64,000 nucleotides of DNA from Zootoca vivipara (Eukaryota): assembly GCF_963506605.1 (NCBI RefSeq), contig NC_083288.1, forward strand, positions 28,830,001-28,894,000, given 5' to 3'. The notes beneath the pieces were generated by a model. The model ran no database searches and had not been told where the DNA came from. It worked only from the letters and a program-made list of their open reading frames with translations. The position numbers were made by a program, and so were the translations under genes. Positions 2,429 to 64,000 of the stretch are shown one piece after another (positions within the stretch are counted from its first letter, which is position 1; the number at the start of each line of letters is the position of its first letter).

Positions 2429-2930
2429 CAGCAGATACCAATTAGTCCCAGGATTATATCAAATATAGAAGTGGTGTTTACAGGCCTTCCGGGACATTTT
2501 CACCATTTGGTTCTACACAGCTGGAAAGGGTGCAGTAACAACTCTCCTGATGTTGGTAGGTAGGAAGTTGCAGGGGAACAACATCTGGAAGGTCACATGC
2601 TTCCTATCCCTGGTCTGAATATTGTAAAGGAAACCAATTGTGCTCAGGCAACCTCACTGTGAAGCAGGTGATATTTTTTCTATTTCCAACAAACAGAGAA
2701 TCTCTGACATCAGGGAGGTATTTATCTACTCAGTAATTATGAAAAGCACTATTATTCATTTCATTAGTCTGCATCAACAAGAATAACAAGATATATATAA
2801 TAAGGAGCCTAAATGTTGAGCTCACATGAGAACTGGTTCCAATGTGGCACATAGGGTGGGATGGTCTATGCAAAAAGGATAGGGATAAATTTACTATCTA
2901 CTGCTACTGCTGTGAGTGCAGTGAAACATT

Positions 2931-24739: not shown

Positions 24740-24756
24740 AAATTACTCCCAAGGGA
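24740..24756 (+). promoter_or_regulatory. Adjacent homeodomain-like (AAATTA) and O/E(EBF) site TCCCAAGGGA upstream of OR-3
   Basis: Perfect TCCCNNGGGA about 65 bp before a candidate 5'UTR donor GTGAGT (24822) and about 420 bp before the ATG. Confidence 0.45.
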
Positions 24757-35623: not shown

Positions 35624-36304
35624 CCTTAGAACAAGGGGAAATCTTCCTTATGCACAAATATTTCCTTATTCTCTTCTAGAATACTCTCATTACTTTTACA
35701 CTGTCTCTCTTGAATCTAGGAGCACCCAACACCCTAGTGGATCCCGTACCTTTTAAATGGTACTGGGTATGCTTATAACATGTTCCACAGGTTTTGCTGT
35801 GAGTTTTGCCAGTGTTCACTTCAACTCCATAGGGGCTTTGGGAAGCAGCAGAATTAATCACAGTACTTTTGATCATGAAACAGGAAGATAATTATTGAGT
35901 CAGAATGGGAGATTCCCTGCAGAACTGCTGTTACATTTCCAATAGTATCATTTTGAATTCTCTTCTTTTAGATAATATGGGAACAAGGGTGTAGTAGTGA
36001 ATTTTGATGTTAGGCGCTCATTTTAACAGCCGCTGTAGCCAAAAGGGACTCCCTAATGGAGAGTGGTGTACACAGAATGTTCGAATTAGGCTGCGGAGAC
36101 CTGGGTTCACATCACCAATAAGCCATAAGACATTACTACAATGCTGTTCATAATAGTTGTCTGGGAGTAAGGTCCACTGAATTCAGTGGTTCTTATCTCA
36201 GCATAGTTTTACACATTTCAACATGCAAAGCACAATTATTTTTTTAAGAAAAGATCTTTAGTGAGCTAAAATGTGATCTTAAGGTTTTATTTAAAAATGC
36301 AAAC

Positions 36305-36338
<34 letters not shown>

Positions 36339-40178: not shown

Positions 40179-40967
40179 TGTCATGATATATCAGGACACC
40201 GAGGAAGGGGAAGAGGATCCTGGCAAGGAGTCTTAGCCACAACGGGTACAAATTGAAGATTGGACAGGTTAGTGACTTAGGAGGTGCTCACAGGACAGTA
40301 GGGGATGTTGAAGGGGCAGCTGACAGTCCATGGGAGCCAGGGGGAAAGGACACATCACTATAACCAGAGATGCCTCCATCTCTATGGACACAGGTGGCAT
40401 CTCTGAGGCATCAGGAGCAGTGGGAAACACACTCTAGAAGACTGAGACAGGCAAGGGAACATAGCCCAGCTCACTAATTGACCGGATGAACATCATGAGG
40501 CTTGTTAGTTCTGGGAGGAGGTTTGTGGTCACTCAGATGGATGAGGCTCAGGGCAGGTGGGGATCACATGCCTCATCAAGTGGAGAGACACAATTGCTTA
40601 GCTGGAGAAAACCCAGATCATCAACCAAGATCGGAAGGGATGAAAGGGAAGCAAGGAAGATGCACTATGTTAATGAAACATGGCTGGCTGGCTGTAGACT
40701 TTTGATTTCAGGACTGACTCTCGGTTTTCTGACCCTGAATCTGCTGCAGAGGCAGGAACCTGGCCTTACTGTTATTGACTCTGGACTTTTCTTGTTGTAT
40801 TGGACCTGGACCAGTATTGGACCTTTTGTACTGTCTAGCATTGCCCTTGGGACTGTTTGCACTGTCTGTGTACTCGGCGTGGGGGAGGAACGACCCCCCA
40901 GGCATAACGCAGGAATCTTTCCAGCCGTCTCCCCAATTTCTTCATGACCCATGCCTTGTTGTTGACA
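40179..40967. mobile_element. Probable solo LTR in V2R-C intron 4
   Basis: TGTCA...TGACA ends. GC-richer block absent from the homologous intron of V2R-B. TSD not convincing. Confidence 0.4.
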
Positions 40968-41332
40968 CTGGGCACATGCTCCATAAATCTTGCAGAGTAA
41001 AAACACAGAAGAGTGAGGCAGAGGTTTGTGCACTAAGCTACTTTATTGCTAAGAATTAAGCAGAACAAAAGAAAGCATGTCTCATCTCGGAGAGAGAAAT
41101 CCGGAGAAGAAAACAACAACAAATGGAAACAGAATACAGCAACATTCGCTCCCAGGTCTCTTCTGGAATGTGTAAACACAGTCTTGTGACTGCCTAACTG
41201 CACAGTGAGAGGAAATAGAAACCTAATATGCACCAGTAGAGCTTACCTCCAGGAATGCAGGGGTTCAGGACATTCCTCCACCCACTCACTCATATCCTTT
41301 GCCTCACCCTTTCAGTCACATCTTATCCTATC

Positions 41333-41381
<49 letters not shown>

Positions 41382-42417
41382 TTTTTTGGTCCACACTATA
41401 TCCTCTTTTCAAAATAAAGCAAAGTGTTCGTAGTTTTAAATGAAATCAGTTTTAAACTTCAGGATAAAACATCAGGGTTCCTTTATTATTGGACCTTTTG
41501 CTAAATGCCTGTCACTTGGATTCTACCTGGTTAAACCAGCTGTGCCAAGTTATTACATCTTTATCAATGGTGAATGCTTGATCTGAAGAAGCTTCAGGAT
41601 CCATCCTTCCGACCCTCACTCTATGAAGGGATTGATTGGAGAATATAATCCAATTGATAATATCCAAGCTAGATGCTACCTCCCCATTCTTGTTGAAGGA
41701 TACCACATCTCCTGCACTGTTGTTAAATGAGATACTTCTCAGAAAGTGGTGGAGCTAAATTGAAAACAGAAAAGATGGGTGTTTAGAAAAGGCTGCAGTC
41801 TAATACAGGTCTGAGCAATCTTTTTTTCCCTGTGGCCAGAACCTACAGTGCATAGAGTCAGGGTCAAGCATGTACAGAGCCAACCAATTTTCTCTCACAT
41901 AAATGTTTTCCTCTTATTCTTTCTGTCAGGCTTCTCTCTCCTTGCTCCATACCTCAGACAGAAGAGTGGTGTGTGACCACTTGCTCGAAGGAAAATTTTT
42001 GCAGGCTGTCAAGGGTGTTTCACAGCCAAAGGAATGCGCATGACAGGTAATTATTTATTGTCAAACATATCACTTGCAGTCGCTTCTACAGCTCTGGATG
42101 CCTATGCACAACAATATAGCAGCTACGCAGCTACTCCCAGGTTTGCACTCTATGGCGCAGTTGCCACAACAACGGAAATAGCAAGAATGCTGCGCATCTC
42201 TGTTGACTATTACCACAGCTTCCTGACTGTTAGTGAAATGACATCTCAATGGGCCACAAAACATCTCCTATGCAAATGCTTTATCATGTACACAGTGGTT
42301 TCTGCTCAAAGAAAGATACAGCCATCATCTGTCCACAAAATTATAGATTCAGTTCCTCTTCCTATTTCATATGCCCAATTTTTTTTAACCCTGAGAGGAA
42401 GGAGCAAGCTGACAGTA

Positions 42418-42849
42418 CAGTAGTACCACACAAGACGAATGCCTCGCACAACGGAAAACTCACAAGACAAACGAGTTTTGCGTTGCGCGAGGGACTCGCA
42501 AGACGGCAAGGTTTTCTATGGCCACCGCTTTGTCTTGCGAAGCACGGCCATAGAATGTAGCACAGGAAGGCGGCAAAGGAAGATCAGCTGTCAGCGCGGG
42601 AAGCTGACAGCTGATCTTCCTTTGCCTTCTTCCCGTGCTACAGCTGGTGGCGGCAGCCCCAGTAAGGAGCGCCCGCCGAGCTTTGGCTCCATCCCCGGGG
42701 GACGGAGCCGAAGCACGGCGGTACGGGGGCTGCCACGCATGATTAAGTTTCAATGCATTCCTATGGGAAACCGCAACTCGCATGACGAATTTTTCGTAGG
42801 ATGTATTGAGTACTGGAACGAATTAAATTAGTCTTGCAAGGCACCACTG
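42418..42849. mobile_element. Tc1/mariner-type MITE
   Basis: TA-CAGTAGTACCACACAAGAC...GTCTTGCAAGGCACCACTG-TA. CpG-rich, with internal palindrome GGAAGATCAGCTGTCAGC...GCTGACAGCTGATCTTCC. Confidence 0.75.
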
Positions 42850-43788
42850 TACTTTGGAAACCCATACATTGTGAGGGAGTAACGGTGCTCTTCCATGTTG
42901 AGGATGTTCAACCCGTTACCTGCCAAAACAGTTGATTCTGATTCTTCACTCTCCCTCCATATGCCATTCCTCTGTGTCTGAGTCTGGATGTGGACATAGC
43001 ATGCAAAGCATGAGCCATGGCATAGACTTCACCATGGATACTGTAACTGTGGCCTGTCATACTCATTTCAAAAAATGATCCTGGAAGGTTCTCCAACTTC
43101 TCTTCTCCTGTGCAAATGTTTCCCTCCACCTTGTCTGCAGTGCCATCTGGGAATACACAATCAAAAGCCTGTTGCCAGAAGTCCCTGATAAAGCCATCCC
43201 CATCTGTGTTGGAAGGGTTTCTGTGCTCAACATATTGATGAAATCCTGGTAGGTCACTGAAGTGAATTTCAAAAGATATAGCACCATTGAATAGTCCTGA
43301 ATCCCAGTTTCTTTGAAAGACAAATGAAGTGAATTCAATCTCAGTTGTTATTATCCAAACTTTACTTTTTACAGTGCCATGGAATAAAAGTCTCCATTGG
43401 CCACCACTACATTAGCTTTGCTGCTCATTATATTATCATGTATTTTTGCCCCCTGTTGTAGCATGTCATTAATTTCAGGGATGAAACTATAATTAGGAAT
43501 TCTTTCTATGAAGGCAAAACAGATGCCCTTTGGAGAAAACAATTGAACTACTGTATGTACAAATCTTTCCCCGTTGTCATTGTCCATTGCAGTGACCCCA
43601 ATCCATGTCCACTTGAAATGCAGAAGCAGAGAGATAATTCCCTCATATTGAAGGTCTTCCTGGGCTGTCAACTGGTAGAAGGCAAGCCCTGGGGTTTTAT
43701 CATTCATCACGGGAGCAGAGCCATAAATGAGCTAAAGAGGAAAGGGAGGAAGGGAAAAGGCACAATATAATTTCCAGTGTTATTTCCA

Positions 43789-44045
43789 GAGAGCCAGTGT
43801 AGTGTAGTGGTTAAGAGCAGTAGACTCGTAATCTGGGGACCCGGGTTCGCGTCTCTGCTCCTCCACATGCAGCTGCTGGGTGACCTTGGGCTAGTCACTT
43901 CTCTAAAGTTTCTCAGCCCCACTCACCTCACAGAGTGTTTGTTGTGGGGGAGGAATGGGAAAGGAGAATGTTAACCGCTTTGAGACTCCTTAGGGTAGTG
44001 ATAAAGTGGGATATCAAATCCAAACTCTTATTATTATTATTATTT
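43789..44045 (+). mobile_element. tRNA-derived SINE (Squam3-like)
   Basis: Head GAGAGCCAGTGTAGTGTAGTGGTTAAGAGC...GGGTTCGCGTCTC, CORE-like GGGTGACCTTGGGCTAGTCAC, and (TTA)n tail. Lies ~55 bp from the V2R-C exon-3 acceptor. Confidence 0.75.
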
Positions 44046-44227
44046 CAAACTATTTATGTACATTATATGATGAATTCCATTGGCTGCATGCTATCTTTCA
44101 TTTATACAAAATGCACACATTCATATGAGCTGAAAACTGGGATAATTTCCCATTCCTGCTTGTTAAACATTTGATCTGATGAGTGGGGATAGGCACTGTG
44201 TCTATTTATTTATTTATTTAGGTAGGG

Positions 44228-44266
<39 letters not shown>

Positions 44267-47200
44267 ATTGCTGAATTTGGTAGGTCTTGTGGGTTGAATA
44301 AAATTGATGGGAGGGGCACACCAGGCCCCAATAAGAGTATTAGCTACCCTTGCATAAGATACTATTTAGCTATGTCAGAATTGTAAGTTGGGGAATTTAT
44401 TTTTCTAGAGCCTCTCCTTTTTTCTTCATGATGCACAGACGACCCAGCCCAGAGCAAAACTGAGATTTCTGCTTCCTTTTTCCAAGATTCCTCACACTTC
44501 TTTTTGAACCCTTATTTCAATTGTGAACCAGCTGCTCACTACTATTACTCCTTTCCTGCAAAGCTTGATTGTTTCTGCTACTTAGCACAACTTCATTATG
44601 TGTTTAATTTTTCCCAAACCCATTGCTTTTGGGGCATGGTGTGGTGAGGAGGGAGAAGGATGTTAGCGCCAGTTACCTGTGTGTAAGCTCTCCCCCCCCC
44701 CAACATATACACACTGAATGCACATGCCTTCCTCACTAAGTAGAAAATGCTGTATACTCAAACATAGGTGGTAAGAGAGAAGTCCATTATTCCACCAGTG
44801 GACCTTGGGATATCAGTTTCCTGCAAAGGGGAGGGAGTTGAAATAGAGAATGTATTATTCTCCCCTCCCATGCAAATTTACTGCAAAGCAATGTTTTCAT
44901 TGAAGAGCATAGTAGAAATGAAAGGGTGGATGCTAGAAAGCTCCCTCTCCTACAAGGAATGCTTGATAACAGAGTTATTGCTGGAGTGGGGGACCTACAC
45001 CCTGAATTGGTGCTGGGTACCTAGCCTCTTCTTTTCCTCTATGCAATCTAAAAAAGGTATTGCACATAAATGTCCTACCTGTGGAATCTTATAGATATCC
45101 AAAATTGTTGCCACATAAAAGGAGATTTCCGAGTCGATTCCCCCAATAACCCCTGTCAGATTATTTTCAATATCACATACATAGTTGGGGACACATTTTT
45201 CCAGTTTGGATAAAAGTATCAGTGTGGCAAGATACGTCTTCCTTGCATTAATATAGCTGTCATAGATATGGAAGCCCAAGGTGATATTGGGCAAAATGTG
45301 GGAGCATCCATTGATCTCCTTAACTGCAAATGCCAAAGCCAGGATGTGCTGATAAGCCTTGGGTACCACCCTAGAATGAGAGTTGCAGATTGTTTCAGAA
45401 GCATCTTCAACACTTGGACCATTTAAATGTCTGCATAGAAATTAATCATATTGAATTCAGCTGGGTTTACTACTGCGCTACTAGACTGTTAATCCATACA
45501 CCTCGACCAAGAACTAAACCTAAAAGAGCACAATGGAACTTATTTTCAATTGTGGGATCAGTATATTTTCACTGTATTTAATATTCCTTAGTATATATCC
45601 CATAAATGGGAGCTTCTGTGTTATTCCCTTTATTCACAGCTGATTCATGTTAGTTTTCAGATCAGTGTGTTTTATTTAAATCAAAGGTAACAGAGTTGAC
45701 ATTTGCAGCATCAGCCATTGTTCTGAAGCTGCAGCTCTGGGATTGTTCATGAGAGGCTGAGTTCTTACACAAGCTCTTCAGGCTGTACTGGTGGAGGTTC
45801 CTCCATGAATGTTGCTGAAGTGGATAAGAAGGCACCATGGGAAACAATGCCACCGATGATGAAATCTCCTGGCTGATGATACATGTGAAGTGGACGATGA
45901 GGACCTTGGAGCCTACATTTTGCTATGTGAGCCTTACATACCATGTAAGGAAACAGCTCCAGCAGGAAGATTGGTAAAACAACCATCCTTAATACAATAT
46001 AATCTTCATTCTACACAGAAACCACTGTTTTTCTGGCAATACTATGAATGGCATCTCCAAGATGAAAATTGTCTGATTTGAATGGTAATTTAGTTTCCTG
46101 AGAGACTGCAATTTGGGCGTCTGCAAGCTCAGACCTGTGAATCCCAGACCCTATCTATTCTGATTAGATTTATAGTATCCTTTGACAGTTATCACTGAAA
46201 ATCAAAAAGGATTTTTGAGAAGCAGCAGCTTTAATTATAGTCCTCTTAATAATCAAACAGGAAAGTAGTTATTCATCAAGTGCAAGGTATTCCCTGTGGA
46301 AATGCTTAAGAAAATGTGTTTGTCACATATTCAGAACTGTCACTTTTTAATTCCCTTTAATTCCCTTTAGTTAGATAATAAGGGACCAGTGGTGTAGTGG
46401 TGAATTTTGAAGTTAGGAGCTCATCATAACAAACCCTATAACCAATTGGGACTAAAAAATGTAGTATGGTGCAGTTAGGATCTTGGGAATTGTCTGAGAA
46501 GACCTGGATCTATATTCCTGATCAGCCATGTGTCATGACTACAATCCTATGCACAATACTTACTTGGGAGTAAGCTCTGATGACTTCCATGAGCTTATCT
46601 CTAATTGCATAGTTGTACAAGACTTGTAAAAAATATAAAGGAGACAATACCATTAAAGGAAAAGAAAATGCTGTCTCTATTATCACCCCACATCTTCGAA
46701 TTCCACTATACTAATGACAAACAGCAGTGAAACTTGGAAGCTTAGTTACTGCTTCATTAACTTCCGTTAGCATGGAGCATCTTGTGCTCTGGGAGATGGT
46801 GACAAATCTGCTGTTGTATAGCACAGCAAGGGAGAATAGAGTTTGGAATTACCCAAGACAAGGGAAACCAACAAGCAAAGAAACCACAAGAAATAGTATA
46901 TGACATTTTTTTTATTAAAAAATATTTCAAGATCCCTCTCCACACAGTGCTCTTCTCTCCCTCACACAGTCAACATTCTGATAATACTTCTTGCATTCTT
47001 GATCAACCCACAGATTAAGAAAAAGTGGACACTTCAAGACTGAGAGTAAAATGCACGTGCTTTGTAAGGGGAAGAGCCTTGTTTTGATTTCCAGTACCTC
47101 TAGTCAAAATGAAGTCAGGGAGCCTCAGTTTCAAATCCTTGCCAGAGTAACTAATGCTGGGTTAGGTGGTCCACTCCATTACATACAACTCATCACACTC

Positions 47201-47451
47201 AAGTTGAATGAAGGGCTGCCTATAAGGATCACTTATGAGCATTATAGATTACCATTGGTTGTAAAACAACAGAAATGAGATAACTAAACCTTTCAAAATT
47301 GGATTTTGTAAAGAAATAAATGGTGCTTATATAAGTATGTTGAAAATATCCTACATCTCTATATATCTGCCAAATATGGTAGACATCATTTTAAAAAACA
47401 AATTAGCAGAAACTTTGTGGTTCCCCACATTCAAAGGGTGTGTCAAAGTTT

Positions 47452-48401
47452 TCATTCACATGCCAGTGCAGGATTTCTAGTCAACAGTTTTCTCAATGCA
47501 TTCTGGACATCCTTGTTCCTCAGGCTATATATAATAGGATTGACCATCGGTGTCCCAACTATATAGAGCACAGAAAAGACTTTGCTTAAGTTGGGATACC
47601 AAGTTGTCGTAGGTACACCATACACCACCATCAGTGTCCCATAGAACACTGTAACCACAATGAGATGTGAGGAGCAGGTGGAAAAGGCTTTCTGTTTGCT
47701 TTTGGCAGATGGGATCTTGAGGATGGTGGAGATGATTTTACAGTATGACAGAATGGTAAGAAGGAATGGAGAGAAGGATACAAGAGAAGCAATAATGAAA
47801 GAAAGGATTCTCACCAGTCGTGTGTCTCCACAGGCAAGTTTAACCACAGGTGCCAAATCACAGAAGAAATGATCAATCTTATTAGAGGCACAGAAAGGCA
47901 GCACAGAAACCATTGGCATGGTGACAAATAAGGAAATAAACCCACCAACCCATGACCCTATCGCTAGCTGAATGCAAACTCTGAAGTTCATTAAGTTTCC
48001 ATAATGCAGTGGTTGGCATATGGCTACGTAGCGATCATAGGACATTGCTGCTAGAAGAAAACACTCGGTAACTGCCAGGGAGCCAAAGATGTAAAACTGG
48101 AGGAGACAAGCTGAGAAGGAAATGGCCTCATGGGCAGTCAGTAATGTTTTCAGCATTTTTGGAACCACACTAGTGGTGTACCATATTTCCAAGAAAGAGA
48201 GGTTTCCCAGGAAGAAGTACATGGGGGTATGAAGGCTGTGGTCAGTCAACACAACCACTGTGATCATTATATTCCCCATTAATGTTACTATGTAGACCAC
48301 AAGAAATATCACAAATGTAGGGGTTCTTAGCTTACGAAGGTTCCCAAATCCCAGGAGAATAAATTCTGTGATCACTGTTTGATTTGGACTTGCATTTCCA
48401 C
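47452..48401 (-). CDS. Olfactory receptor OR-4 (family 11/6-like); 7TM body intact but the apparent start codons are 1 nt out of frame (possible recent pseudogene or assembly indel)
   Basis: NQTVITEFILLGF, LHTPMYFFLGNLS, MSYDRYVAICQPLHY, KAFSTCSSHL and PMVNPIIYSLRN. Acceptor TTTTTCAG at 48402. The ATG at 48395 is out of frame, and the ORF-track start at 48510 is an intronic TTG. Confidence 0.85.
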
Positions 48402-48849
48402 CTGAAAAATAGACACACAGTTGATGAGGAAGAGGAAGACAAGCAGAGCAGGGTATCTGTTTAACATAATCTGAATAATTTGGCTCCCTATAATCAAATG
48501 GAATGTACAATCATATTGAGCAATATGAAAACTTCTTTCCTGTTAACTCTCTTCATAAGCCATTTGCACATTTAGTTATGTAGGGAACTCACCTCCATTG
48601 TTCTTCTGGTGAGTGTCAGCTGGGCTACTTCTAAGAAGTATTTCCTAGTATGAATTTTGCACATTTGTACATTCTGCAAAATTTAAATATTTGAATATGT
48701 AGAGCAGGGGTAGCCAACATGGTGCTTTCTGCTGTTGTTGGATCACAACTCCCATCATCCTGACCACTGACCATCCTGGCAGGGGGTGATAGCAAATTAG
48801 CTATCCTTAATATAGAGGCTATAATCTTTGATTCCTCAAACTTTCCCAG

Positions 48850-49305
48850 AACCATTGGACAAAATTCATAGACTGGATAGTATCCCAAGGGTCATGTAGT
48901 CCAGCCCCTCACAATGCAGGAATCTCAACTAAAGCATCCATGACAGATGGTCATCCAACCTCTGCTTTAAAATCTCAAATGAAAGAAAGTCTACCACTTT
49001 CCAAGAGAGTCTGTTCCTGTGTCAAACAGCTCTTACCATCAGAAAGTTATTCCTTATATTTAGTCGAAATCTCATTTTTTTGGAACTTGAAGTCATTGGT
49101 TTTGGTCCTACTCTGTGGAGCAGGGGAAAATGAGCTTCTCCACCTTCCATGTGGCAACCTTTGAGATACTTGAGGATGGCTATCATATCTCCTCTCTGTC
49201 TCCTCTTTTCCAGGTTAAACATATCCAACTCCCTCAAGCATTCGTCATAAGGCTTGGTTTCCAGACCCTTGATCTTCTTAGTTGCCCTCCTCTGCACATG
49301 TTCTA
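48850..49305 (-). mobile_element. CR1 LINE 3' fragment
   Basis: Minus-strand peptide QRRATKKIKGLETKPYDECLRELDMFNLEKRRQRGDMIAILKYLKG is the CR1 ORF2 C-terminus, followed by CR1 3'UTR. Confidence 0.85.
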
Positions 49306-49322
49306 ATTGTTATACTGTATTA

Positions 49323-49377
<55 letters not shown>

Positions 49378-51041
49378 CTAAAACCAAGTCTCTGGTGCTC
49401 TGTCATTCAAACGGAAACTAGACCTGATTGTGCAGGGAACTTGCTGCTCTCCTGATGTTGTGGATCCACTCACGGTGACCGCTTCCCAGACCAGATTTCA
49501 ATGGCTCTACTTAGCATGACTAGGGGAACAATTCTATGCACAGGAAGCTTGTGTGAAGCAAGCCAAAAAAGTACTTCAGATCCAAACTCTGTTCAGGGGC
49601 AGGGCTACCTCTGGCTGAGCCAGCCTAAATATGACAGGAGGGAAAGACGCCTTTAAAATGTGTTTTGATTTATACCGCCCATTTTGCTGGCTTGCTGGCT
49701 TAACGTACACATGACTGAGCTGAAAGGGTTTAAAATCCAGCCTAAGTCTCCCTTCCCTCTGGTCCTCCCCCCCATCTGTTTCAGAGCTCATGCCAATTTA
49801 AGATTCGCCAGGCTCAACTCTGATGACTGGATCCCAGCTTAGATGAGATAAGGAGGGGGAGATAAGCTGGTGTAGCCTGGCTGTTCTGGGAACCTCCCAG
49901 CTCAACCAGAGATCTGCTGGATCCTAACTCCACTCATGCTGGTGGATCTTGCTGTAGAATTGAGTCTGGATCCAACTTAAAGTTTGTCTTTTTAAAATAT
50001 TTAAAGGAAAGGCAGCTAAATAAATGAATTTTGTTTTACCTTTCAACACATTGTCTTCTAAATGCATCTTGCAGGTCTTGGTTATATATCTATCACAGGG
50101 TATTTCAGATTCCCATATATATATATCCCCCAATTGGGGAAAACTAGTTCCCGTGGTGCTTTATTCTGAGAGAGTAGCTAAAATAATGTCTTCTTGGCAA
50201 ACCAATAAATAAGCAAATTGTTGAACTAATTAGTAGCAAAATATTTATATTTAGCAGTGCCGTAATAATTTGATTGCATGAACAATAGGGATTAATTTGT
50301 ATCAATAGCCTATTTCCAGTTGGGAATATTTGCTTATGAGTCAGGTCAAAGTTCTGGTAGCTAAAAAATAAGAGAGAACAAAATGGACCCCCCCCCCTTT
50401 TGAAATGGCACAGTCAACATTGTGACAATCAGAGAGCATAATTGCCTTTAAATCTGTAGCTATACAGTTTTAACGTATGGTATTTGTATATAAGCGTGAA
50501 GACATATTGGAATGTTGTTATTCCTATATCTGCATTTGATAAAAGCAGACACACACACACACACCAACAACCTAGAATTCACTAGGTTGAAGCAATGAGC
50601 AGACACACTGAGTGAGCTTTGACACCTAAGAAGTTGGTGGGTCATCTCAGATATGAATGGAACAGAGAGTAAGAGAACAATCCTTACCACCTTTTGGATG
50701 GTTTGGATAAATCTTATTTATTATAGTAACAGGGCACAGCTGTTGCATTACTTTGCAACAGCCTTGGCAGACATATAAAATATGTGAGAATGGTATGATT
50801 TTTGTAGTTATATTAATATTTTAAATGCATCCCCATTTTAGCTTCTTTTCAGCTTATTTCCTATATTTGTAGTTCTTCTGTGAAATATATATCTTAATAA
50901 ACAAATAAATACATTCATCTGTCTCCAGACTGAGGCCTTGTATTTCTGGTGTCTGATCCTTCCTGTAAGTCCCCAGAAACATTTACATTCTATAATTTCC
51001 TATCAAACTAGGTGCACAAGGGGAAAAATACCCCTTTTAGT

Positions 51042-51237
51042 TGTGGCAAACATGTTTTCTTGTGCAATTTCTCAGGGAATTCCCAATTTTGAATTTTTGA
51101 TGCCATTCATTATCATGAGCAGTGCAATTAGTTGTTGCATTGTCAAAAATAAAAAGCAAACGAACAAGCCAAAAATTCATCTATGTAGTTGTAGTTACAT
51201 TTATTATCATGATGAGTATTATAATTAACTGCTGCTT
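51042..51237 (+). promoter_or_regulatory. Conserved V2R upstream module (O/E-like TTCTCAGGGAAT plus TAATTA-CTGCTGCTT)
   Basis: Homologous blocks lie upstream of V2R-B (35843-35928), V2R-C (46220-46328) and at the window end (63948-63998). Confidence 0.55.
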
Positions 51238-51488
51238 GACAAAACAAAAAACAAAAAAGGAACTTAGCTGTGGCAGATGCCATAAGTATATCCCCTAGCA
51301 CTTAGAGGAAGGGCTAGCAACTAAAACGAGGCATTTATTCATCAGTATGATCCTCAGGTCCTTCTGTTTGCAATTGCAGACTTAAGGACTGTTTGAATGT
51401 TCAAATTAGGCCATTGTAATCTTGCAGCATGTTTATAGACATCAAGAATCTGCATGTAGACGGGAAAAATGAACTTGTGCTGGGGATA

Positions 51489-54400
51489 ATGGTTCTGTTG
51501 GTGTTATGGATGCTCATACTGCTCCCTCACATGACATGCAAGGCCCACACTCTTAAATGCAAGGTCTGGTATCCGCACCCTCCATTCCACAAGTATCATC
51601 AGTCAGGAGACCTCCTCATTGGTGCTGTTGTTTCCCATGGTGGCTTCATCTCCTTCTCACCAGATTTCATGAAGGAACCTCCACAGCCACTGAAGGAAGA
51701 ATTTTTGTAAGGGTTTACTTTTTTACTTACCCGTAATATTGGCTTCATTTATCTTAGAAGTAGAATGATTGGTGGTAAGCAAGCCTGATGCCCTTTTAAA
51801 GGGTGTTGTGGGAGGAGGGATTATTTGGTTGTCTTTGGTTTTGGTTTTCTTATGTATTCTGGGCTTTTTTAACATTGTGATTATATGTGATATTGATGAT
51901 AAATTGTAGAATATCCTTCTGATACAAAATGGAACTCTCATTCTAGAGTGTTGCCTAAGAATTACCAGCATATTGTGGCCTTGGTCTTCGCAGTGAAGGA
52001 GATTAATGAAAACTCTCAGATCTTACCCAATGTTACCTTGGGCTTCCACATCTATGACAACTATTACAATGCTATGTGGACCTACTATTCTACAATGCTG
52101 CTCATATACAGTTTGGAGAGATTTTCCCCAAACTACAACTGTGATCTACGTAATAAGCTAACTGCAGTAATTGGTGGTCTGGATTCCCAAATTTCTTCAA
52201 ATATGGCCATTTTCTTGGATATGCACAAGATTCCACAGGTACGATATGCAAATAAGGGTATGACAAGTTTGCAATTCCTTCACAACTCCTTAGTCGTAGT
52301 CAGGTGCAATGGATGCGTTTGAAGGAAACAAATGAACCTTATCTTACGTGTTAGTGTCATCTGTGAAAGAGGGGTGTTATAGTTTTATTTAATTTTTCTT
52401 CTCATTTTTATTGTGCATTTTGTGTTTTGTACATGTATTTTTATGCAGTGAACCAGCCTGAGAGCTTCAGATGAAGGGTGGCATACAAATTTAAATCAAC
52501 ATCACTCTAATCATTTCTAGGTGCTAGCCCTATTCTATGGATGAGAGCAAGTTTGCTACTCTCTTTCTCTTTTATTATGGAAATAATTGGAGTCTTCCTT
52601 CTGGAAGAAGTGACTAAGCAGGATTTCACATGGCAAAAGGGGCCAATCAGATTGGGAAGGTTCCACCCCCCCCCCATTTTAATGGCAGTGCCATCTGCAA
52701 CCTCTTATTTTTAAAATCTTCATGCTATTTACCTTCCTACTGTTTGGCAATATGGGACTAGGCATTTGACTATACAGGGTATAAACTGGAATTTCTGGGG
52801 TATTGTTAAATTGACGTTAGGTTTTTGTTTGCTTGTTTTTGCCTACTCCACATTACCCTCTACAGATACAGATTAGCTTTATGAATTTGTCTGTTTCATT
52901 TCCTAAACTGGTAAGTGGATTTGATCCATCATTAAGCACGGGACGCAGGTGGCGCTTTGGGTTAAACCACAGAGCCTAGGGCTTGCCAATCAGAAGGTAG
53001 GCAGTACGAATCCTCGCAACGGGGCGAGCTCCCATTGTTTGGCCCCAGCTCCTGCCAACCTAGCAATTCGAAAGCACGTCAAAGTGCAAGTAGATAAATA
53101 GGTACCATTACAGCGGGAAGGTAAATGGTGTTTCCGTGCGCTGCTCTGGTTTTGCCAGAAGCGGCTTTATCATGATGGCCACATGACCTGGAAGTTGTAC
53201 ACCGGCTCCCTCGGCCAATAACGCGAGATGAGTGCCGCAACCCCAGAGTCGGTCACGACTGGACCTAATTGTCAGGGGTCCCTTTACCCTTTACCTTTAA
53301 GCACCCTATGTTTCTATGTTTAGGTATGAGCACTTCTTCCACTGCCAACCAGCTTAGAAGCCTTTGTAACATGTATCAACAGCGGTGGGGTACACCAGTC
53401 AAGTCACAAACTCCCAAGGATCCCATTTAATGAGAGATGGGAAACTGCTTCATCCCATGCCATCAAACTGATGTAGTTCAGCTGGGGTGGTTTTGAACAG
53501 GTTGGTGTTTTCACCAGTCTGCAAAGATTCAACTTGGCTGCACTTAATTATGTTTGGTTATATTTAATAAATATAACCAAAACTGGCCTCCTGATTCTCC
53601 CTTCAGGTGTGCAGGAAAACACAGTCTGTATGGCCCTTTCATAGCCTATAAATGCCACATTCTCATTGACTATTAGTACAGTATTTTAAAAGTTCAAAGT
53701 ACTTAATTACTCTGTTTCACCCTGAGAATGTTTACTGTGAATTGATTCATGAATCTCAAGATTCTTCAGGACTACATTTTATCATAGTGCACCCCGCTCT
53801 GTGAATAGCTCTAGGAAAAAAGTAATTTAGGAAACTTCCAAACCAGCTGTTTATTGAGCAGTGATTATTATATATTTGCAGAAAACCTGCATGGAGCTTA
53901 TACAACATTGCCTGTATTAGAAATATTTATCTCTCATCCTTCTTCATATCACTGAATAAAACTCTGATAATTATTCTAAAAATGCATCACTTGCAGACAG
54001 ATCATAAAACAACTTTAAATTTGAGACACCTTCATACAGTTCACTAACTTTGCAAGTAACATGGCTGCCAGAGTAGAAATGACATGTGCAAATAGTGCCA
54101 ATTTCTCTAGCACTAATGGGTAATGAATGGGAGTTTAAACCACCAAAGGTGATTGTTTATCTTCAACCTCATCTTCATATGTATCCTTAGCTAACATACA
54201 GCCCTGCTCCGGAGATGAACTATAAAACCCCAGGCCTTTTCTTCTACCAGATGGTCCCTAAGGAAGACCTACAGTATGATGGGATTCTTCATCTGCTTCT
54301 GCACTTCAGGTGGACATGGATTGGGACCGTTGTTATGGATACTGACAATGGAGAAAGATTTGTGCAAACTGTGCTTCCAACATTTCCCCAGAAAGGTGTC

Positions 54401-57400
54401 TGTATTGCCTTCATGGAAAGAATCCCGATTCCAACTTTTATTTCGGAGATTACCAGCATGGTGGCTCGTGGAAAAGAAATAAATGATAAAATAAGAAACA
54501 GCAAAGCCAATGTAATTGTGGCTTGCGGGGAGTCTTATTCCTTTCCATTTTTTAGATGGTTGTCATTTCTGTCAAGTGTAGACCACATGGCAAAGAAACC
54601 CAAAGGCAAAGTGTGGATAACAACAGCCCAGATAGAGCTCAATTCATTCTCCTATCAAAGGAATTGGGATGTAGAAACTTTCAATGGTGCAATAACCTTC
54701 TCATATCAGTTCAATCATGTGTCAGAATTTCAGCAGTTTGCTGAGGGCAGAAACCCTTTCAGCACTTCTAGAGATGGTTTCATCAGGGACTTCTGGCAAC
54801 ATGCTTTTGACTGTGCTTTTCCAAATACAACAGTGGATGAGGTGCCTGAGAATATTTGCACAGGAGAGGAGAAGCTGGCAGACCTTCCATTCATCTATTT
54901 TGAAATGAGCATGACTGGCCATAGCTACAGTGTCTACAATGCTGTTTATGTTGTGGCTTATGCATTACATGCCATGTCTTCATCAAGACTGAAAAACAAA
55001 GCAATGCTGGATGAAGGGGATCTGAAGCTTCAAAATCAACCATATTGGAAGGTAGTTAGCTGAACATCCTCATGGGTTATAGCTAGACTAATTTGAGAAG
55101 TAAGCTGCCTCCCTATACTCTTCCAGTCCTTATGGTTGTATCTTCTTTAGCTGTCCTAAAAGCTAGAACCATCGTTTTTAATTTAGCCATCTCTACTTTC
55201 TTTTTCGTTGTGTATGTGCTGAGCCCTTAAAGCTTTGTAACCAGTACAGAAACCCACATTTAGAAGCAACGTCTTGTATATTAGAAAAGTTTGCTCCTCC
55301 ATCTGGCTGCAAAAGTGGTCCAGGCAGGATTGCTTTTGTGTGGGGACAGAAAGACTGGCATGTAGGCACTCCAGTTTCTGATGCTGGAAAATTTCAGCAA
55401 AGGGAGAGGGGCAGAGGTATTTAAGGTGATGCTTTCTGCCTCTTTGTTCTCTTTATTTCTGAGCACAGGATTCAACCTGCCCTTCCAGTGTGAGTTTAAC
55501 TGGTTGCCTTATTTGGGGGCAAGAAGAATTTTTTGTCCTTTTCTGTGATTGGCTTACAGGCATTTTCCCCCTCCTATTCTATACTGTCATGCCAAGCTGC
55601 AACAGTTAGTGGTGCATACTGGATATTTATGTTGACAGGTTATGTTGATGATGGGTGGGAAAGGTAGAGACTTGTGGTAGGTAGGGTCTGGAACCTGTGT
55701 CTCTCACTCTTGAGGGGGCATGAATGGGTTTCTAAAAAAACTCAATACCTGTGCAAAACAAATTAACAAATGCCCGAATTATGAGACAAATGCAATTTCA
55801 TGACCCACTTGCAGCATTTTTATAAACCTTTATATTTTCATTCTAGCTCCATCACTTTCTGAGACATACCTCATTTAACAACAGTGCTGGACAGAAGATT
55901 TCCTTTGACCAAAATGGGAAGTTAGCAGCTGGATTTGATATCATCAACTATTTATGTGTTTCAAATATATCTAAAGTAAAGATTGGGAAGGTTGATCCTA
56001 GGGCCCCTTCAGAACAAAAAATAACCATCAATGAGGATGCCATCACATGGCACAACTGGTTTAACCAGGTAGGATCCAGTTAATAGCAGTTTAGGAATTA
56101 CTTGTTCCTTGAAGTACTGAATGTCAGTAATGATAGACAAAATTAATTTCCCGAGGTATTGCTCAAATGAAGATACTTTATATAAATTTGTAGAAGTTTA
56201 TATACTTCATAACATTATGCTTGGCATGGAGAAAATGGATAGAGAACAGTTTTTCCGCCTCTCACATAACATTAGAACCTGTGGATGAAACTGAAGATTC
56301 AAGACAGATAAAATAAAGTAATTCACACAGTGCATACTTAGACTATGGAACTAATTCCCACAGGATGGTCACCAACTTGGATGGTTTCAAAGTGGATTGG
56401 ACAAATTCTTGGAGGTTCAGGCTAAGAATGGCTATTAGTTATGATGACGATGTTCTGCCTCCACAGTCTGAGGCATCTTAATAGCATGGGGTGGAGTGAA
56501 AAGTGTTCCTGTTCTCAGGTCCCCCTTGCAGGTTTCCTACAGGTCATTGTGAGAACAGATGCTAGATTAGATGTGCCATTGGCCTGATCCAGCAGGCTCT
56601 TCTTATGTTCCTATGTGTTTACTTGAGAAATCTTGCATCACGGATGTTTCTTTTCCCTTCTTCTCAAGCACATTTCAAAACATCTCCCCCTCTTTTGTTT
56701 AACCATATATAAAGAGAGCCAACTCAGAGTTCTGAGGTAAAAAAATACAGTGAGCCTGTAGATAGAATAATAGAATCACAGAATTGTACAGTTGGAATGC
56801 ACCACAAGGGTCATCTAGTCCAACCCCCTGCAATGCAGGAATCTTTTGCCCAATGTGGGGTTTGAAGCCATGACCCTGAGATTAAGCATGTCATGTTGTA
56901 CTGACTGAGCTATCCACAAGGGCGATTAAAAGTTACATCATGAGTCAAAAACTATAAACAAAAATGGTGGAATTAAACCGATTTCAACTCATATTTTCAT
57001 TATTTATCTTAACAATTCTATCAGGTCATGTTCAACAATCCAAACATGAAGCATTAAATCCCAGGAATAACTAGGCAGCCTGTTTAAGACCATAATAACT
57101 TGCAAAACTCATTTAACTCTTAACTGATACATTAAGCACTAGATGGCATTATAACCAATATATATATATTCCTCTAATATACACCCACATTCCTGGTACG
57201 TTTTACTACTTTTTACTACTTTCCAGCATATTTCCAGCATATTCCAGTCCATTGGTGTAGAAGAAGGACACCACTAGTGGTAATGGTTGAAAGACTGGAC
57301 AGAGATGGGTAGAACAAGATGAATTTCAAATGTTAATCCTAATTTTCCAGTTTAATAGTGATAATTGGGCATGCTTTTGTGGGACTGGAGTCACATAACA

Positions 57401-60400
57401 TGGTCCCAAGACTTCAAAAGTATGTTAGCATATGATGGAACCATGCAGCCATTCTGATAAATCTGAAAATGAAAAGCCCACCCCAAAGGTTTAAAGGTCA
57501 TCAAAGTGAAGGTTATTATTTTTTGTCCTATTTGCTTTATGAATTAGACACAACCTATTTCTGAATGCGTGGAAAGATGCCGTCCAGGTTCTAGCAAGAA
57601 AGTGAAGGAAGGGAAGCCATTTTGCTGCTACGATTGCATCTCATGTCCAGAAGGAAAGATTTCACATGAGGAGGGTAAGGCCTATATTGTATAGGTTTAT
57701 TGATAAAATCAATGCAGTCTAGAGGGATAGGTTTGTAAAGACCACTTTAGGTAGAGATAGATAGATTTTCTATATTGCACTTCACCATATGGCTGCAGGG
57801 CCATGTAAAATATAATGAAATATGTCAATACAGACTTCTAGAAATCAGTTAAAATGTTAATGCAAAATAAACTCACCATAAACTAAAACAACAGTGGATA
57901 ATCTAAGATAACTAAAGGTACAACAAATTGAACTAACTCTCCCCCCCCAAAAAAAAACCCACCTAGAAGAATAGTCATAAGCACATCAGCATTATTTCTC
58001 TACATTTTTTTCCCAAAAATTTTTTTCCCAAAAAAATGTTGGCATATTTTGGTAGGGGTTGGTGCTGCACAGGACAGCACTGAAAAGGTATGAATTGACA
58101 TATGATATTTAAATATATGTGCAATAATTTGACCTTGTGTCTGGCGAGACTCACCACCACGAGGTCTGGTGAGACCTGCTGCCACCACAAGATTCTGTTA
58201 GGGTTGATGCTGCCGCGAAGCCCGACAAAACCACTGGCATACATCTGGAAGCCTACGCCACACTGGAAGTGCAGTGGAAGTGTAGCCTGGTTCCTTACGC
58301 ATGTCAGTGGCCACAGCATGCTTCCAGGCCTTGGCAGAGGCCCTGCAGATGTGGTGGTGGAAGAAGCAGGACATCACAGATTGACATAAGAAGCCGGAGC
58401 CGCTTCTGTCAACCAGTGTCATCCCATACAAATTGGGACTGTTGGTGGATGTGTCATGTTGGTCTCCTACTAAAAGTGAACCAGAAAATATCACTCTTGG
58501 GTCTGGAGAAAACATATGTTCTTCTGCTGTTTTTTCTTGAATGTGATAACATCATAATCTTTGGTTTGTTTGTTTACACAAAGTAACTTGAAACAACTTA
58601 CAACAACAATGCCACTTCCACACTTGAGTGGGGGCAAATTTCCCACACTCCATGTCCCCCAGGAAAGGAGACTCAAGTGATCTCTTCCTGGAGAGGAATT
58701 GTGGGTGGCCCATCTTAATGTGTGGAACAATCTTAGAGATGGGGAACAGGCTTTTAAGCCTTGATCCTCCCTGAATGCTGCAGATTTCTCTTTGGAGAGA
58801 CCCACCCCCCTTCCCATTGCAGTGTAGGCTTGGGTTAGGTGGTCATTTCAGAGCTGATTAGGAATTTGGGAGTGAGCCCATACTTCACCTTGATTTTTCT
58901 CTATTTTGCCTACTTCATACTGTTTAGTTTAGTTTAGTTTAATTGTCTGTTAGTCCAGGCAGAAAATACAAGTCAAGAGAGGTGGGATAATTGAGGAAGC
59001 CTTGGGTTAAGGGCACTCTTGAGTCACTTTATGCTGCCTTGATTGGGGTCATTGGGTGTGCCCTTTAGGCTGGCATGCACACTGGGGTAAATGCTAACCT
59101 GATGGGGCAAGTGTGTGCTTCTCGGATCACCTACCAAAGATTATTAGAGTTTTCTTTCCAATCTTTTGCTCCAAGCTAACAGGTGTCTCCTGTAGACATA
59201 TGAAGGAGTAGGAAGTGTCATGTTTCCTTCTGTCTTAGGAAACTTTTCCTCTCAAACTATATTTTGGTTTTGCTAGCTTTAATTTGGTTTTTAGATATAT
59301 AATCTCAGATAATTCTGCATCCTGAGTCTTCCTTTGGGTATATAGGCAAATACATAATACATAGCTGCCAAGTCTCCCGCTGAAAAATGCGGGATCAGCA
59401 GTGGCGCGGCACCAGAAATCGCTTCTACTCGCTTCTACACATGTACAGACATGCGTAGTAGCGACTTTCGGTGCCGCGCTACCCATGTATGAGCACCAGA
59501 AATCGGGTGGTGCCAGGGCCCAAAATGGAGCCTCCCTGGCAGGTGAGAAATCCAGGGGATTTACGGGATTATTTTTTTCAATCCAGGCTGCCAGCAGGAA
59601 ACTTTAAAATATGGGGTTTCCCGCGAAAAACGGGAGACTTGGCAGCTATGACATAACACCTCCCTTAAAATCATAACACCTCCCTTAAAATCAGCATTTA
59701 ACTATGAGTAAAATCTAAAATGTAGGCACCATGAGTATGGAGCTGGCTAAGTGGATCACTGTCCTTAGTCATGAACAATATTTGATGCTTTGTTCCAGAT
59801 GTATGCAACTATCACAGACAAATCATTATTTGATGTACATTTAATACCTCTGAGAGGAACAGCCATAGATATGTTTATGAGATGAATATAAGATTGACAG
59901 AGACTCATTTCTTTTTCAGACATGGGTGACTGCTTTAAATGCCCTGATGAATATTATCCAAACAAAAACCAGGTTGCATGTATCCCCAAGGACATAAATT
60001 TCTTGTCTTATGAAGAACTATTGGGGGTCATTTTAGCTTCTTTTTCTCTCTTCTCTTCAATTATCACAACTCTGGTATTAGGAATCTTTATAAAGCACCA
60101 TGACACTCCCATTGTCAAAGCCAACAACCGGGATTTGACCTACATTCTCCTCATCTCCCTCCTGCTCTGCTTTCTTTCTGCCTTGCTATTCATTGGTGAA
60201 CCTCAGAAGGTGACATGTCTCCTTCGGCAAACTGCTTTTGGCATCATCTTCTCAGTGGCTGTTTCTTCAGTTTTGGGAAAGACTATTATTGTGGTTCTGG
60301 CTTTTATGGCCACCAGACCAGGATCAATAATGAAAAAATGGGTGGGGAAAGGACTGGCCTACTCTGTTGTCGTTTCCTGCTCCTTTATTCAAGCAGGCAT

Positions 60401-60824
60401 CTGTACTATCTGGCTGGCAACTTATCCCCCATTCCCAGATGTTGACATGCACTCAATGACAGAAGAAATCATACTAGAATGCAATGAGGGGTCTGTGGCA
60501 ATGTTCTACTCAGTCATTGGCTACATGGGTTTCCTGGCCACGGTTAGTTTCACAGTGGCTTTCTTTGCCAGGAAGTTACCTGACAGTTTCAATGAAGCCA
60601 AGTTCATCACTTTCAGCATGTTGGTCTTCTGCAGTGTTTGGTTATCCTTCATTCCTTCTTATATGAGCACCAAAGGAAAATACATGGTGGCTGTGGAGGT
60701 TTTCTGTATCTTAGCATCCAGTGCTGGGTTGCTGGGCTGTATCTTTTCCCCAAAATGTTATCTAATTTTGTTGAGGCCAGAGCTGAACAATAGGGAACAG
60801 CTAATAAGACAAAATGTTTGTTGA
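51489..60824 (+). CDS. Vomeronasal type-2 receptor V2R-D, intact, 6 exons, 874 aa
   Basis: Exons 51489-51706, 51947-52238, 54191-55051, 55847-56068, 57548-57674 and 59920-60824 (218/292/861/222/127/905 bp). GT-AG junctions, frame open throughout. An in-frame upstream ATG also exists at 51429. Confidence 0.94.
52940..53296 (+). mobile_element. Sauria (Squam1) SINE, full length
   Basis: Head GGGACGCAGGTGGCGC, BovB-like tail AGAGTCGGTCACGACT plus (ACCTTT)n, TSD TTAAGCAC (52932-52939 / 53297-53304). Confidence 0.9.
56225..56612 (+). mobile_element. Old CR1-clade LINE 3' remnant
   Basis: ATGGAGAAAATGGATAGAGAA...CTATGGAACTAATTCCCACAGG...GGATTGGACAAATTCTTGGAGG...GGCCTGATCCAGCAGGCTCTTCTTATGTTC. Confidence 0.5.
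56770..56914 (-). mobile_element. tRNA-Lys-derived SINE with CR1 tail (copy of the 2276 family)
   Basis: Reverse complement of the 2276 element: AGAATCACAGAATTG...GTCCAACCCCCTGCAATGCAGGAATCTTTTGCCCAATGTGGGG...CTGACTGAGCTATCC. Confidence 0.75.
59360..59650. mobile_element. hAT-type MITE (same TIRs as 19191)
   Basis: TIRs CATAGCTGCCAAGTCTCCCG...CGGGAGACTTGGCAGCTATG; TSD ACATAATA/ACATAACA. Confidence 0.85.
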
Positions 60825-63430: not shown

Positions 63431-64000
63431 AATACCACCAACAATGGTGCAGTAAATAAAGAGTTCACTTGTAATTGTTCAAGATATAATCTATTTTGGA
63501 AAGAAAAGAAATGAACAGTGAACCACTGATATATTACGAGTACAAGTGAACTCTGTATTTAAAGAAACTACTTTTGTCATTTTTATGAAGGTTTCTGGTT
63601 TGTTTACAGATTACTGCCTATCTAGCATGTTTTATTTATGTATGGAAATGCTTTTACCTTATGCTGGTCTAGGACCATAATAAAGATTTGGAATTTGGAA
63701 TGTACAGTTCTTGTATGTTACTTTAAGTGATGTATGCATTCATATGAACACTTTCCCCTAGTATAAAACAACTGGAGAAATGTGAATTTCAAATGGTGGC
63801 TATATTTTAATTTGTGTATTGTTTTGGAAAGTGCAAATTTTGCAAATTTGCCTTAAAATGTGATGTGAAAACTTCTCCAGTCAGGCATTTAAAAGCTCAA
63901 GTGCATATTCCTAATCTGATAAATAGAAAAGAAAACTTCTATTCAGATGTGATAAACATGTTTTCTTTTGCAATTCCACGGGGAATTCCCACATTTGACT

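What the first reader, a model, noticed from the sequence alone, without database searches (positions are those of the whole stretch)
51042..51237. Conserved V2R promoter module with O/E-like and homeodomain motifs
Seen in gene orientation, ~220-450 bp upstream of the ATGs. Block 1: D TGTGGCAAACATGTTTTCTTGTGCAATTTCTCAGGGAATTCCC; C TGTGACAAACACATTTTCTTAAGCATTTCCACAGGGAATACC (46328-46286); B GCAGTTCTGCAGGGAATCTCCC (35928-35907). Block 2: D TAATTAACTGCTGCTT; C TAATTAAAGCTGCTGCTT; B ATTAATTCTGCTGCTT. These blocks persist while the spacer varies in length and sequence. Block 1 is one mismatch from TCCCNNGGGA in C and D, and block 2 contains a TAATT homeodomain core. Inference: squamate V2Rs may use the EBF + homeodomain code known from ORs, which would explain why the two families can co-cluster.
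Basis: partly seen in the sequence, partly recalled or inferred. Interest (0 to 1): 0.7.

Follow-up and report, generated by a model that had tools for sequence, protein, structure and literature searches.

The report
Shared promoter of lizard V2R genes
Nearly all sampled vomeronasal type-2 receptor genes of this lizard carry the same inherited ~200-base stretch just upstream, likely their promoter and likely read through fixed-spaced AATT (homeodomain-type) sites and a TATA-like box, whereas the proposed EBF site is imperfect and confined to one branch of the family.

Summary
The blocks are real but are two pieces of one collinear ~200-bp module. It lies upstream of 174 of 179 sampled V2R first exons and 9 of 11 held-out ones. 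It is absent from 43 OR upstream regions and from the single-copy family-C-like gene. What recurs across clades is an array of AATT(A) cores, spaced 16+18 bp in the two largest clades, followed by a TATA-like box. The EBF half is weak. Block 1's O/E-like site is never perfect (0 of 47), has A at the critical fourth base (32 of 47), has two mismatches in gene D rather than one, and is missing from other clades (0 of 29, 1 of 17, 0 of 4). Gene D's 'variable spacer' is an internal duplication. The co-clustering inference is unsupported. Against strong constraint, the average module base diverges about as fast as synonymous sites. Start site and binding are untested. I found no V2R promoter description in ten literature searches and no earlier scan note on it.

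The parts
51033..51144 (+). Gene D module, 5' part (profile positions 8-126): block 1 plus first copy of the AATTA region
   Evidence: nhmmer E 4.7e-18
51046..51057 (+). AAAC/AAACATGTTT element, 5' half of block 1; forkhead-like (motif name recalled)
   Evidence: RYAAAYA in 35 of 47 D-clade modules vs 31% of flanks; AAAC columns are among the slowest; seen by eye in two C2 genes
51066..51078 (+). AATT core plus O/E-like site 1 (TTCTCAGGGA in D, 6 of 8 matches); the AATTCC left part is conserved, the GGGA half is average
51088..51148 (+). First copy of D-specific internal duplication (ATTAT and CAATTA cores)
   Evidence: pairwise alignment; split profile hit
51182..51244 (+). Second copy of the duplication, containing block 2
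51222..51227 (+). TAATTA, third homeodomain-type core; with the overlapping AATTAA the slowest 6-mers of the module
   Evidence: site rates 0.65-0.66 vs mean 1.16
51281..51288 (+). TATA-like box position (CATAAG in D; TATAAA in the clade consensus); start site predicted near 51310
   Evidence: alignment columns 402-407; start site inferred
51489..60824 (+). V2R gene D; six coding exons with open frames
   Evidence: ORFs; exon 3 is Pfam ANF_receptor
46159..46345 (-). Module of V2R gene C (ATG 45986; C has a frame break in exon 3)
   Evidence: E 3.7e-34
35752..35930 (-). Module of V2R gene B (ATG 35623); 5' half of block 1 deleted
   Evidence: E 1.6e-41
2693..2763 (+).
   Evidence: E 0.0037; clade A recovered 4 of 4 by a model trained without it
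63932..64000 (+). Start of the module of the next V2R gene, whose exon 1 lies just beyond the window
   Evidence: E 4.5e-15

Best explanation
The two blocks are parts of one inherited ~200-bp module upstream of nearly all sampled non-C V2R genes of this lizard; it is likely their proximal promoter, likely bound by homeodomain factors at the fixed-spaced AATT(A) cores and by TBP at the TATA-like box about 80 bp downstream. Shown: collinearity across clades, position and orientation, slow AATT cores, 16+18 bp spacing in the two largest clades, and absence from ORs and from the family-C-like gene. Inferred: transcription start about 30 bp after the TATA box; Lhx2/Emx2-type binding, by analogy with mouse ORs and because Emx2 and Lhx2 are reported in snake vomeronasal tissue. 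Block 1's palindrome is a D-clade feature. The clades carry GGGA-containing, O/E-like sites at different positions, which would act as weak clade-specific tuners. That EBF binds them I rate at about 0.3.
For: 174 of 179 loci hit at E<0.01 in sense; 158 kb of downstream control gives one hit, the next gene's promoter. Leave-one-clade-out recovery is 41/100, 32/35, 4/4, 10/10 and 2/20, with 0 in controls, although exon-1 proteins of different clades are only 23-43% identical. Held-out loci from other clusters and chromosomes: 9 of 11. Four clade consensuses are collinear from the block-1 region to the TATA box. AATT lies at -116/-100/-82 (D) and -113/-97/-79 (c2) from the TATA box. A pattern for the first two cores has 21 genome matches vs 6 for the reversed control; 19 lie in V2R arrays and 13 lie 278-448 bp upstream of a listed exon 1. 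In clade S, shared sequence peaks at the module 400-900 bp from the ATG, above the intervening DNA. Intron 1 of the same 42 genes barely aligns. Mouse V2R nanoCAGE tag clusters map close to the annotated 5' ends (PMC3927265, passages).
Against: Per-base constraint is modest. Module tree length is 11.4, vs 10.1 for exon-1 third positions and 14.8 for the 5' leader. Clade-wide identity is 0.59 vs 0.655 at exon-1 fourfold sites. In the 96-gene alignment only the third core and AATTCC are clearly slow; cores 1 and 2 (1.04, 1.10) and TATA (0.98) are near the mean of 1.16. Clade S keeps only one clean AATT in its consensus (P 0.52 vs shuffles; clade M P 0.07) and is poorly recovered when left out (2 of 20). 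TATAAA is exact in only 18 of 47 D-clade modules. AATT is generic in AT-rich DNA. There are no start-site, expression or binding data, and no second species was compared.
Confidence: 0.75

Rival explanations
1. One reading: V2Rs use the same EBF + homeodomain code as ORs, with block 1 a functional O/E site, and this allows co-clustering.
For: Sites within one mismatch of TCCCNNGGGA occur in 13 of 47 D-clade and 3 of 11 'misc' modules, vs 10% and 3% of flanks. The D and M consensuses each hold a 7-of-8 site at non-homologous positions (P about 0.04 each vs shuffles). GGGA halves are well kept in M (8-9 of 9) and S (11-14 of 15). O/E-like sites occur in all 39 mouse V1R promoters, and O/E proteins are expressed in the VNO (PMC3247230, parts 1-2 of 6 read).
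Against: 0 of 47 sites are perfect in D; 0 of 29 (c2), 1 of 17 (S) and 0 of 4 (A) are within one mismatch. The fourth base is A in 35 of 44; the GGGA half evolves at the mean rate; site 2 ranks 198 of 206 windows. With D set aside as the discovery set, only 1 of the 3 other consensuses reaches 7 of 8, which is unremarkable. No adjacent HD+O/E composite in 47 D, 11 misc or 4 A modules. The module is absent from OR upstream DNA, and most carriers lie away from the listed ORs.
Confidence: 0.2
2. Mostly neutral inheritance or gene conversion: paralogous upstream DNA is alignable only because duplicates share ancestry, and the motifs are AT-rich coincidences.
For: Average module divergence is about equal to synonymous divergence. 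B and C align for about 600 bp upstream at 65%.
Against: Introns and far-upstream DNA of the same genes have lost alignability. Spacing is kept between clades at 36% exon-1 protein identity. Two T columns are invariant among 42 genes at a tree length near 11. Conservation peaks away from the coding exon in clade S.
Confidence: 0.1
3. A factor other than EBF reads block 1. The D-clade consensus holds the 12-mer AATTCCACAGGG and its exact inverted copy on either side of the AATTA array, which would be a paired site for one protein (AP-2-like CCNNNGG core, Rel/NFAT-like GGAA, or a zinc finger; names recalled).
For: 12-bp inverted repeat at profile positions 41 and 133; 1 of 300 shuffles reaches this. 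Both copies share the same non-canonical base. AP-2e is required in mouse V2R neurons (PMC9525060, passages).
Against: Found post hoc. The second copy is among the fastest windows (rate 1.29-1.40) and is deleted in gene D. The repeat is absent from other clades. GCCNNNGGC occurs in only 2 of 47.
Confidence: 0.2
4. The module is a transposon remnant co-opted or merely carried along.
For: Inverted 12-mers flank about 100 bp in the D consensus; SINE-like remnants (recognised from memory) lie just upstream in B and C.
Against: A DNA search with B's module gives 6 of 6 hits upstream of V2R exon 1 (the search skips common words). The pattern search gives 19 of 21 in V2R arrays. No Rfam match in 35000-52000.
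Confidence: 0.05

Closest known systems
Mouse V1R subfamily-conserved promoters (Stewart and Lane 2007, PMC1955453, passages; Dietschi 2022, PMC9668312, passages)
   Same: A block of upstream non-coding DNA conserved among paralogs of a vomeronasal receptor family, more than surrounding non-coding DNA.
   Different: V1R promoters are ~1 kb, show no evident cross-subfamily homology and usually lie kilobases from the coding exon. Here ~200 bp are collinear across clades at 23-43% exon-1 identity and lie 100-900 bp from the ATG.
Mouse OR proximal promoters: O/E + homeodomain + occasional TATA (Young 2011, PMC3247239, passages; review PMC12547500, passages)
   Same: Homeodomain-type cores and a TATA-like box in AT-rich DNA; degenerate O/E-like sites in some clades.
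   Different: O/E is the strongest signal in OR promoters (6- to 7-fold enriched) but the weakest here. OR promoters are not alignable among paralogs (also my 43 lizard OR regions), whereas these are, with fixed spacing.
Greek Island Lhx2/Ebf composite motif (Monahan 2017, PMC5608512, passages)
   Same: Rigid spacing of sites as a design principle.
   Different: The composite is an adjacent HD+O/E pair in intergenic enhancers. It is absent here (0 of 47, 1 of 29, 1 of 17, 0 of 11, 0 of 4); this module is one per gene.

Membership tests
OR-type O/E + homeodomain promoter | O/E site enriched near the start | tested here: inconclusive
   Near-matches enriched in D (13 of 47) and misc (3 of 11), not in c2 (0 of 29), S (1 of 17) or A (0 of 4); one perfect site in 108 modules
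OR-type O/E + homeodomain promoter | Homeodomain-type cores | tested here: met
   AATTAY in 44/47, 28/29, 15/17, 9/11 and 4/4 vs 27-42% of flanks; slowest 6-mers
OR-type O/E + homeodomain promoter | TATA box in at least a subset | tested here: met
   Aligned TATA-like column in all four clade consensuses; exact TATAAA in 18/47, 10/29 and 11/17
OR-type O/E + homeodomain promoter | Lies within a few hundred bp of the mapped start site | not testable with these tools
   No usable RNA reads
OR-type O/E + homeodomain promoter | Bound by EBF and Lhx2/Emx2 | not testable with these tools
   Needs EMSA or CUT&RUN
V1R-type conserved promoter | Conserved within subfamily above non-coding background | tested here: met
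V1R-type conserved promoter | No evident homology across subfamilies | tested here: not met
   Cross-clade collinearity and leave-clade-out hits
V1R-type conserved promoter | Carries the V1R motifs of Michaloski 2011 (CNTCTGG group) | not tested
   Not scanned
Greek Island composite enhancer | Adjacent HD and O/E sites | tested here: not met
   2 of 108 modules
Transposon-derived element | Dispersed copies unlinked to V2R genes | tested here: not met
   (DNA search skips common words)

The most novel reading that the evidence does not exclude
All singly chosen (non-C) squamate V2Rs descend with one ancestral promoter whose rigidly spaced AATTA array is the cis-element for one-receptor choice. 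It is absent from the broadly expressed family-C gene and from ORs, and clade-specific GGGA-type sites (in the D clade an inverted pair) tune how often a gene is chosen.
Probability: 0.35. Interest if true: 0.75.

Novelty: new variant of a known kind. Interest (0 to 1): 0.55.

Why it matters
How V2R genes are chosen is stated to be unknown (PMC12710957 and PMC5318403, passages). Non-C snake V2Rs are mutually exclusive while family C is broad (PMC3590772, passages), and mouse family C escapes a choice defect that hits families A, B and D. A 200-bp module that is shared by hundreds of non-C genes, missing at the family-C-like gene and varied naturally (deleted half-blocks, D's duplication, shifted GGGA sites) gives a compact substrate for reporter, footprint and sequence-versus-expression tests. 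It does not explain why ORs and V2Rs share clusters.

Tried and rejected
RNA: no RNA holder listed. Three raw RNA runs gave 0 reads on 50700-52400, which is no test. A second lay, meant to check D's duplication and C's break in independent DNA, returned no data, so both rest on this assembly alone. Direction of change at the O/E-like bases was not determined; only extant column counts and site rates were used. An in-genome O/E matrix from OR promoters could not be built: 43 OR upstream regions share no alignable promoter and hold 6 strict O/E sites in 269 kb (about 3.5 expected by my hand estimate), with no excess near the ATG (0.91 vs 1.01 per kb). YYYCARRRR (recalled) is uninformative: 43% of D modules vs 47% of shuffles. 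TGACA, CAGATG and GCCNNNGGC (recalled) were not consistently enriched. Intron and upstream tree lengths (27-29) are inflated by forced alignment and were not used as the neutral rate. Rows dropped: 5 of 47 representatives before the rate test (L095, L084, L093, L029, L070); 4 of 100 D-clade genes before (L001, L093, L029 and one further gene failing the hit filter); 8 duplicate loci. Scan look-ups gave three unrelated notes and none. Searches were input slips, rerun.

Full report
SETTING. The window (G000:C13:28830001-28894000) mixes four odorant-receptor ORFs (three confirmed as Pfam 7tm_4) with V2R genes A (+, ATG 2949), B (-, 35623), C (-, 45986) and D (+, 51489); 7tm_3 and ANF_receptor domains were confirmed for exons of A, B and D. 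A, B and D have six open coding exons; C has a frame break in exon 3. The genome has 727 candidate 7tm_3 exons (150 scored). I gathered 179 distinct exon-1 loci with 1.5 kb of upstream DNA, about a quarter of the family and biased to relatives of my queries. I grouped them by an exon-1 tree into D (100), c2 (35), S (20), A (4) and misc (20, including a group M of 10).

OBSERVATION. The strings are present. D's O/E-like site matches TCCCNNGGGA at 6 of 8 positions, C's at 7, B's at 6, so 'one mismatch in C and D' is wrong for D. The spacer is 48 bp in B and C; D's 137 bp arises from an internal duplication (51088-51148 ~ 51182-51244). Fourfold-site identity over five exons is 0.55 (D-C, 184 sites), 0.56 (D-B, 216) and 0.68 (C-B, 199). 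Against this, block 1 scores 0.77/0.65/0.70, the spacer 0.48/0.57/0.64 and block 2 1.00/0.94/0.83. Promoters align at z 5.5-25, introns mostly not at all. B and C also align far upstream, so only comparisons with D test constraint.

WHAT IT IS. Aligning 47 dereplicated D-clade promoters shows one continuous ~216-bp module. In order it holds an AAAC element, AATTCC plus the O/E-like site, three AATTA cores, CTGCTGC, a second O/E-like site and a TATA-like box. A profile of it hits 99 of 100 D-clade genes (47 were training) and five places in the window: the V2R genes A-D and the next gene. It hits no OR. Clades c2, S (TATA median 627 bp from the ATG) and M have their own conserved blocks, and the four consensuses are collinear. 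Overall, 174 of 179 loci hit at E<0.01; misses are L029, L106, L129, L144 and L146. In 158 kb of downstream control the single hit is the next gene's promoter. Models trained without a clade recover 41/100 (D), 32/35 (c2), 4/4 (A), 10/10 (M) but only 2/20 (S) at E<0.05, with 0 in controls. Of 11 exon-1-like loci from unsampled clusters (C2, C6, other parts of C13), 7 are hit by the pan model at E<0.01 and 9 by some model; L252 and L266 are missed. A single V2R-like gene beside the GMPS exon on C5 matches the syntenic single-copy V2R of PMC12400810 (passages) and is inferred to be family C; it has no hit in 5 kb (best E 0.27). In 43 OR upstream regions (269 kb) the only hit is an embedded V2R promoter. 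Genome-wide, a pattern for the first two cores gives 21 matches vs 6 for the reversed control: 19 in V2R arrays, of which 13 lie 278-448 bp upstream of a listed exon 1. A DNA search gives 6 of 6 hits at V2R promoters.

WHICH BASES MATTER. AATTAY occurs in 44/47, 28/29, 15/17, 9/11 and 4/4 dereplicated modules vs 27-42% of flanks; TAATTA in 39/47, 17/29, 2/17, 7/11 and 4/4 vs 0-20%. AATT sits at -116/-100/-82 (D) and -113/-97/-79 (c2) from the TATA box, so the 16+18 spacing is identical at 36% exon-1 protein identity. The slowest 6-mers among 96 D-clade genes are the block-2 core (0.65-0.66) and AATTCC (0.74), against a mean of 1.16. The other side: block 1 as a whole (1.10), CTGCTGCTT (1.25), cores 1 and 2 (1.04, 1.10) and TATA (0.98) are near the mean. 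The module's tree length (11.4) is no shorter than that of exon-1 third positions (10.1), and clade-wide identity (0.59) is below exon-1 fourfold identity (0.655). What is conserved is therefore the architecture and a few cores, not most bases.

THE EBF QUESTION. Within one mismatch of TCCCNNGGGA: D 13/47 (none perfect), misc 3/11 (one perfect), c2 0/29, S 1/17, A 0/4. In D the fourth base is A in 32 of 47 and the GGGA half evolves at the mean rate. The best near-O/E site lies upstream of the array in D, downstream of it in M, and directly before core 1 in S and, by eye, in A. Only the D and M consensuses reach 7 of 8 (P about 0.04 each). With D set aside as the discovery set this is 1 of 3, which is not significant. 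The pattern fits turnover of weak sites, or chance. The D consensus also carries a 12-bp inverted repeat spanning both O/E-like sites (1 of 300 shuffles), but the second copy is fast-evolving and deleted in D. Adjacent HD+O/E composites occur in 2 of 108 modules.

CO-CLUSTERING. 85 of 100 D-clade genes lie at 32.4-33.1 and 41.6-42.3 Mb, where none of the listed ORs fall (127 of 838 and 127 of 841 candidates scored, so this is not proof of absence). The module is the same inside and outside mixed regions and is not found at ORs. ORs and V2Rs act in different epithelia, so a shared code would not by itself require linkage (inference).

MECHANISM. Most likely a TATA-containing proximal promoter. 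Homeodomain proteins would occupy the AATTA array about 80-115 bp upstream of TBP, and clade-specific upstream or downstream sites would tune the chance of choice. Emx2 and Lhx2 are listed among snake vomeronasal factors (PMC12400810), and Emx2 is expressed in all mouse VNO neuronal lineages (PMC11630819, passages). The start site, the factors and any role in choice are inferred.

LITERATURE. Ten searches returned V1R and OR promoter studies but no V2R promoter analysis; the library lacks most subscription papers. Seen: PMC3247230, parts 1-2 of 6. Passages only: PMC3927265, PMC9525060, PMC12400810, PMC3247239, PMC5318403, PMC12547500, PMC1955453, PMC5608512, PMC3590772, PMC11630819, PMC5086798 (reference-list hits only), PMC9668312, PMC12710957. 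No supplements were opened. The names forkhead, AP-2, Rel/NFAT, E-box, the YYYCARRRR pattern and the SINE label are recalled and come from no call.

VERDICT. A real, family-wide V2R upstream module, larger and older than reported. The homeodomain/TATA part is supported, the EBF part is doubtful and the co-clustering inference is unsupported. New variant of a known kind; interest 0.55.

Noticed in passing
window 24741-24756 (+): A perfect O/E palindrome (TCCCAAGGGA, 24747-24756) one base after an AATTA core, about 410 bp upstream of the OR at 25170; the only perfect HD+O/E composite in 43 OR upstream regions. Not found in three close OR paralogs by local alignment.
   Followed up: partly
window 43731-42868 (-): Gene C loses its reading frame in exon 3 (stop after about 120 codons), yet keeps an intact promoter module: recent pseudogene or assembly error; not checked in independent DNA.
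   Followed up: partly
window 51469-51489 (+): A six-codon upstream ORF ends in a stop that overlaps gene D's start codon.
   Followed up: no
window 51945-52238, run X1 (organism A): A contig of a related organism covers D exon 2 exactly and continues with letters resembling the start of D exon 5, suggesting a spliced transcript that skips exons 3-4; its 5' end is not exon 1.
   Followed up: no
window ~46620-46340 (-) and ~36230-35950 (-): B and C share about 300 bp of SINE-like remnant (recognised from memory) directly upstream of the module, and B has lost the 5' half of block 1.
   Followed up: no
L033 (G000:C13:28826321) and window 2-928: An A-clade V2R exon 1 with its module lies only 3.5 kb before the OR at the window's start and 6.6 kb before gene A: a truncated V2R, or an OR nested in a V2R intron.
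   Followed up: no
L081/L093 (G000:C13:42255025, 42256039) and L130: Local duplications of promoter plus exon 1 (two modules within about 1 kb or 400 bp), showing that the module duplicates as a unit.
   Followed up: no
clades c2, S and M, about 45-60 bp after the TATA-like box: A further shared element (GGCAGGGCTCTGTCA-like) in the predicted 5' leader.
   Followed up: no
L230, G000:C5 ~21955200-21954900: The family-C-like V2R has a GC/CpG-rich patch (62% GC) 500-900 bp upstream instead of the AT-rich module.
   Followed up: partly
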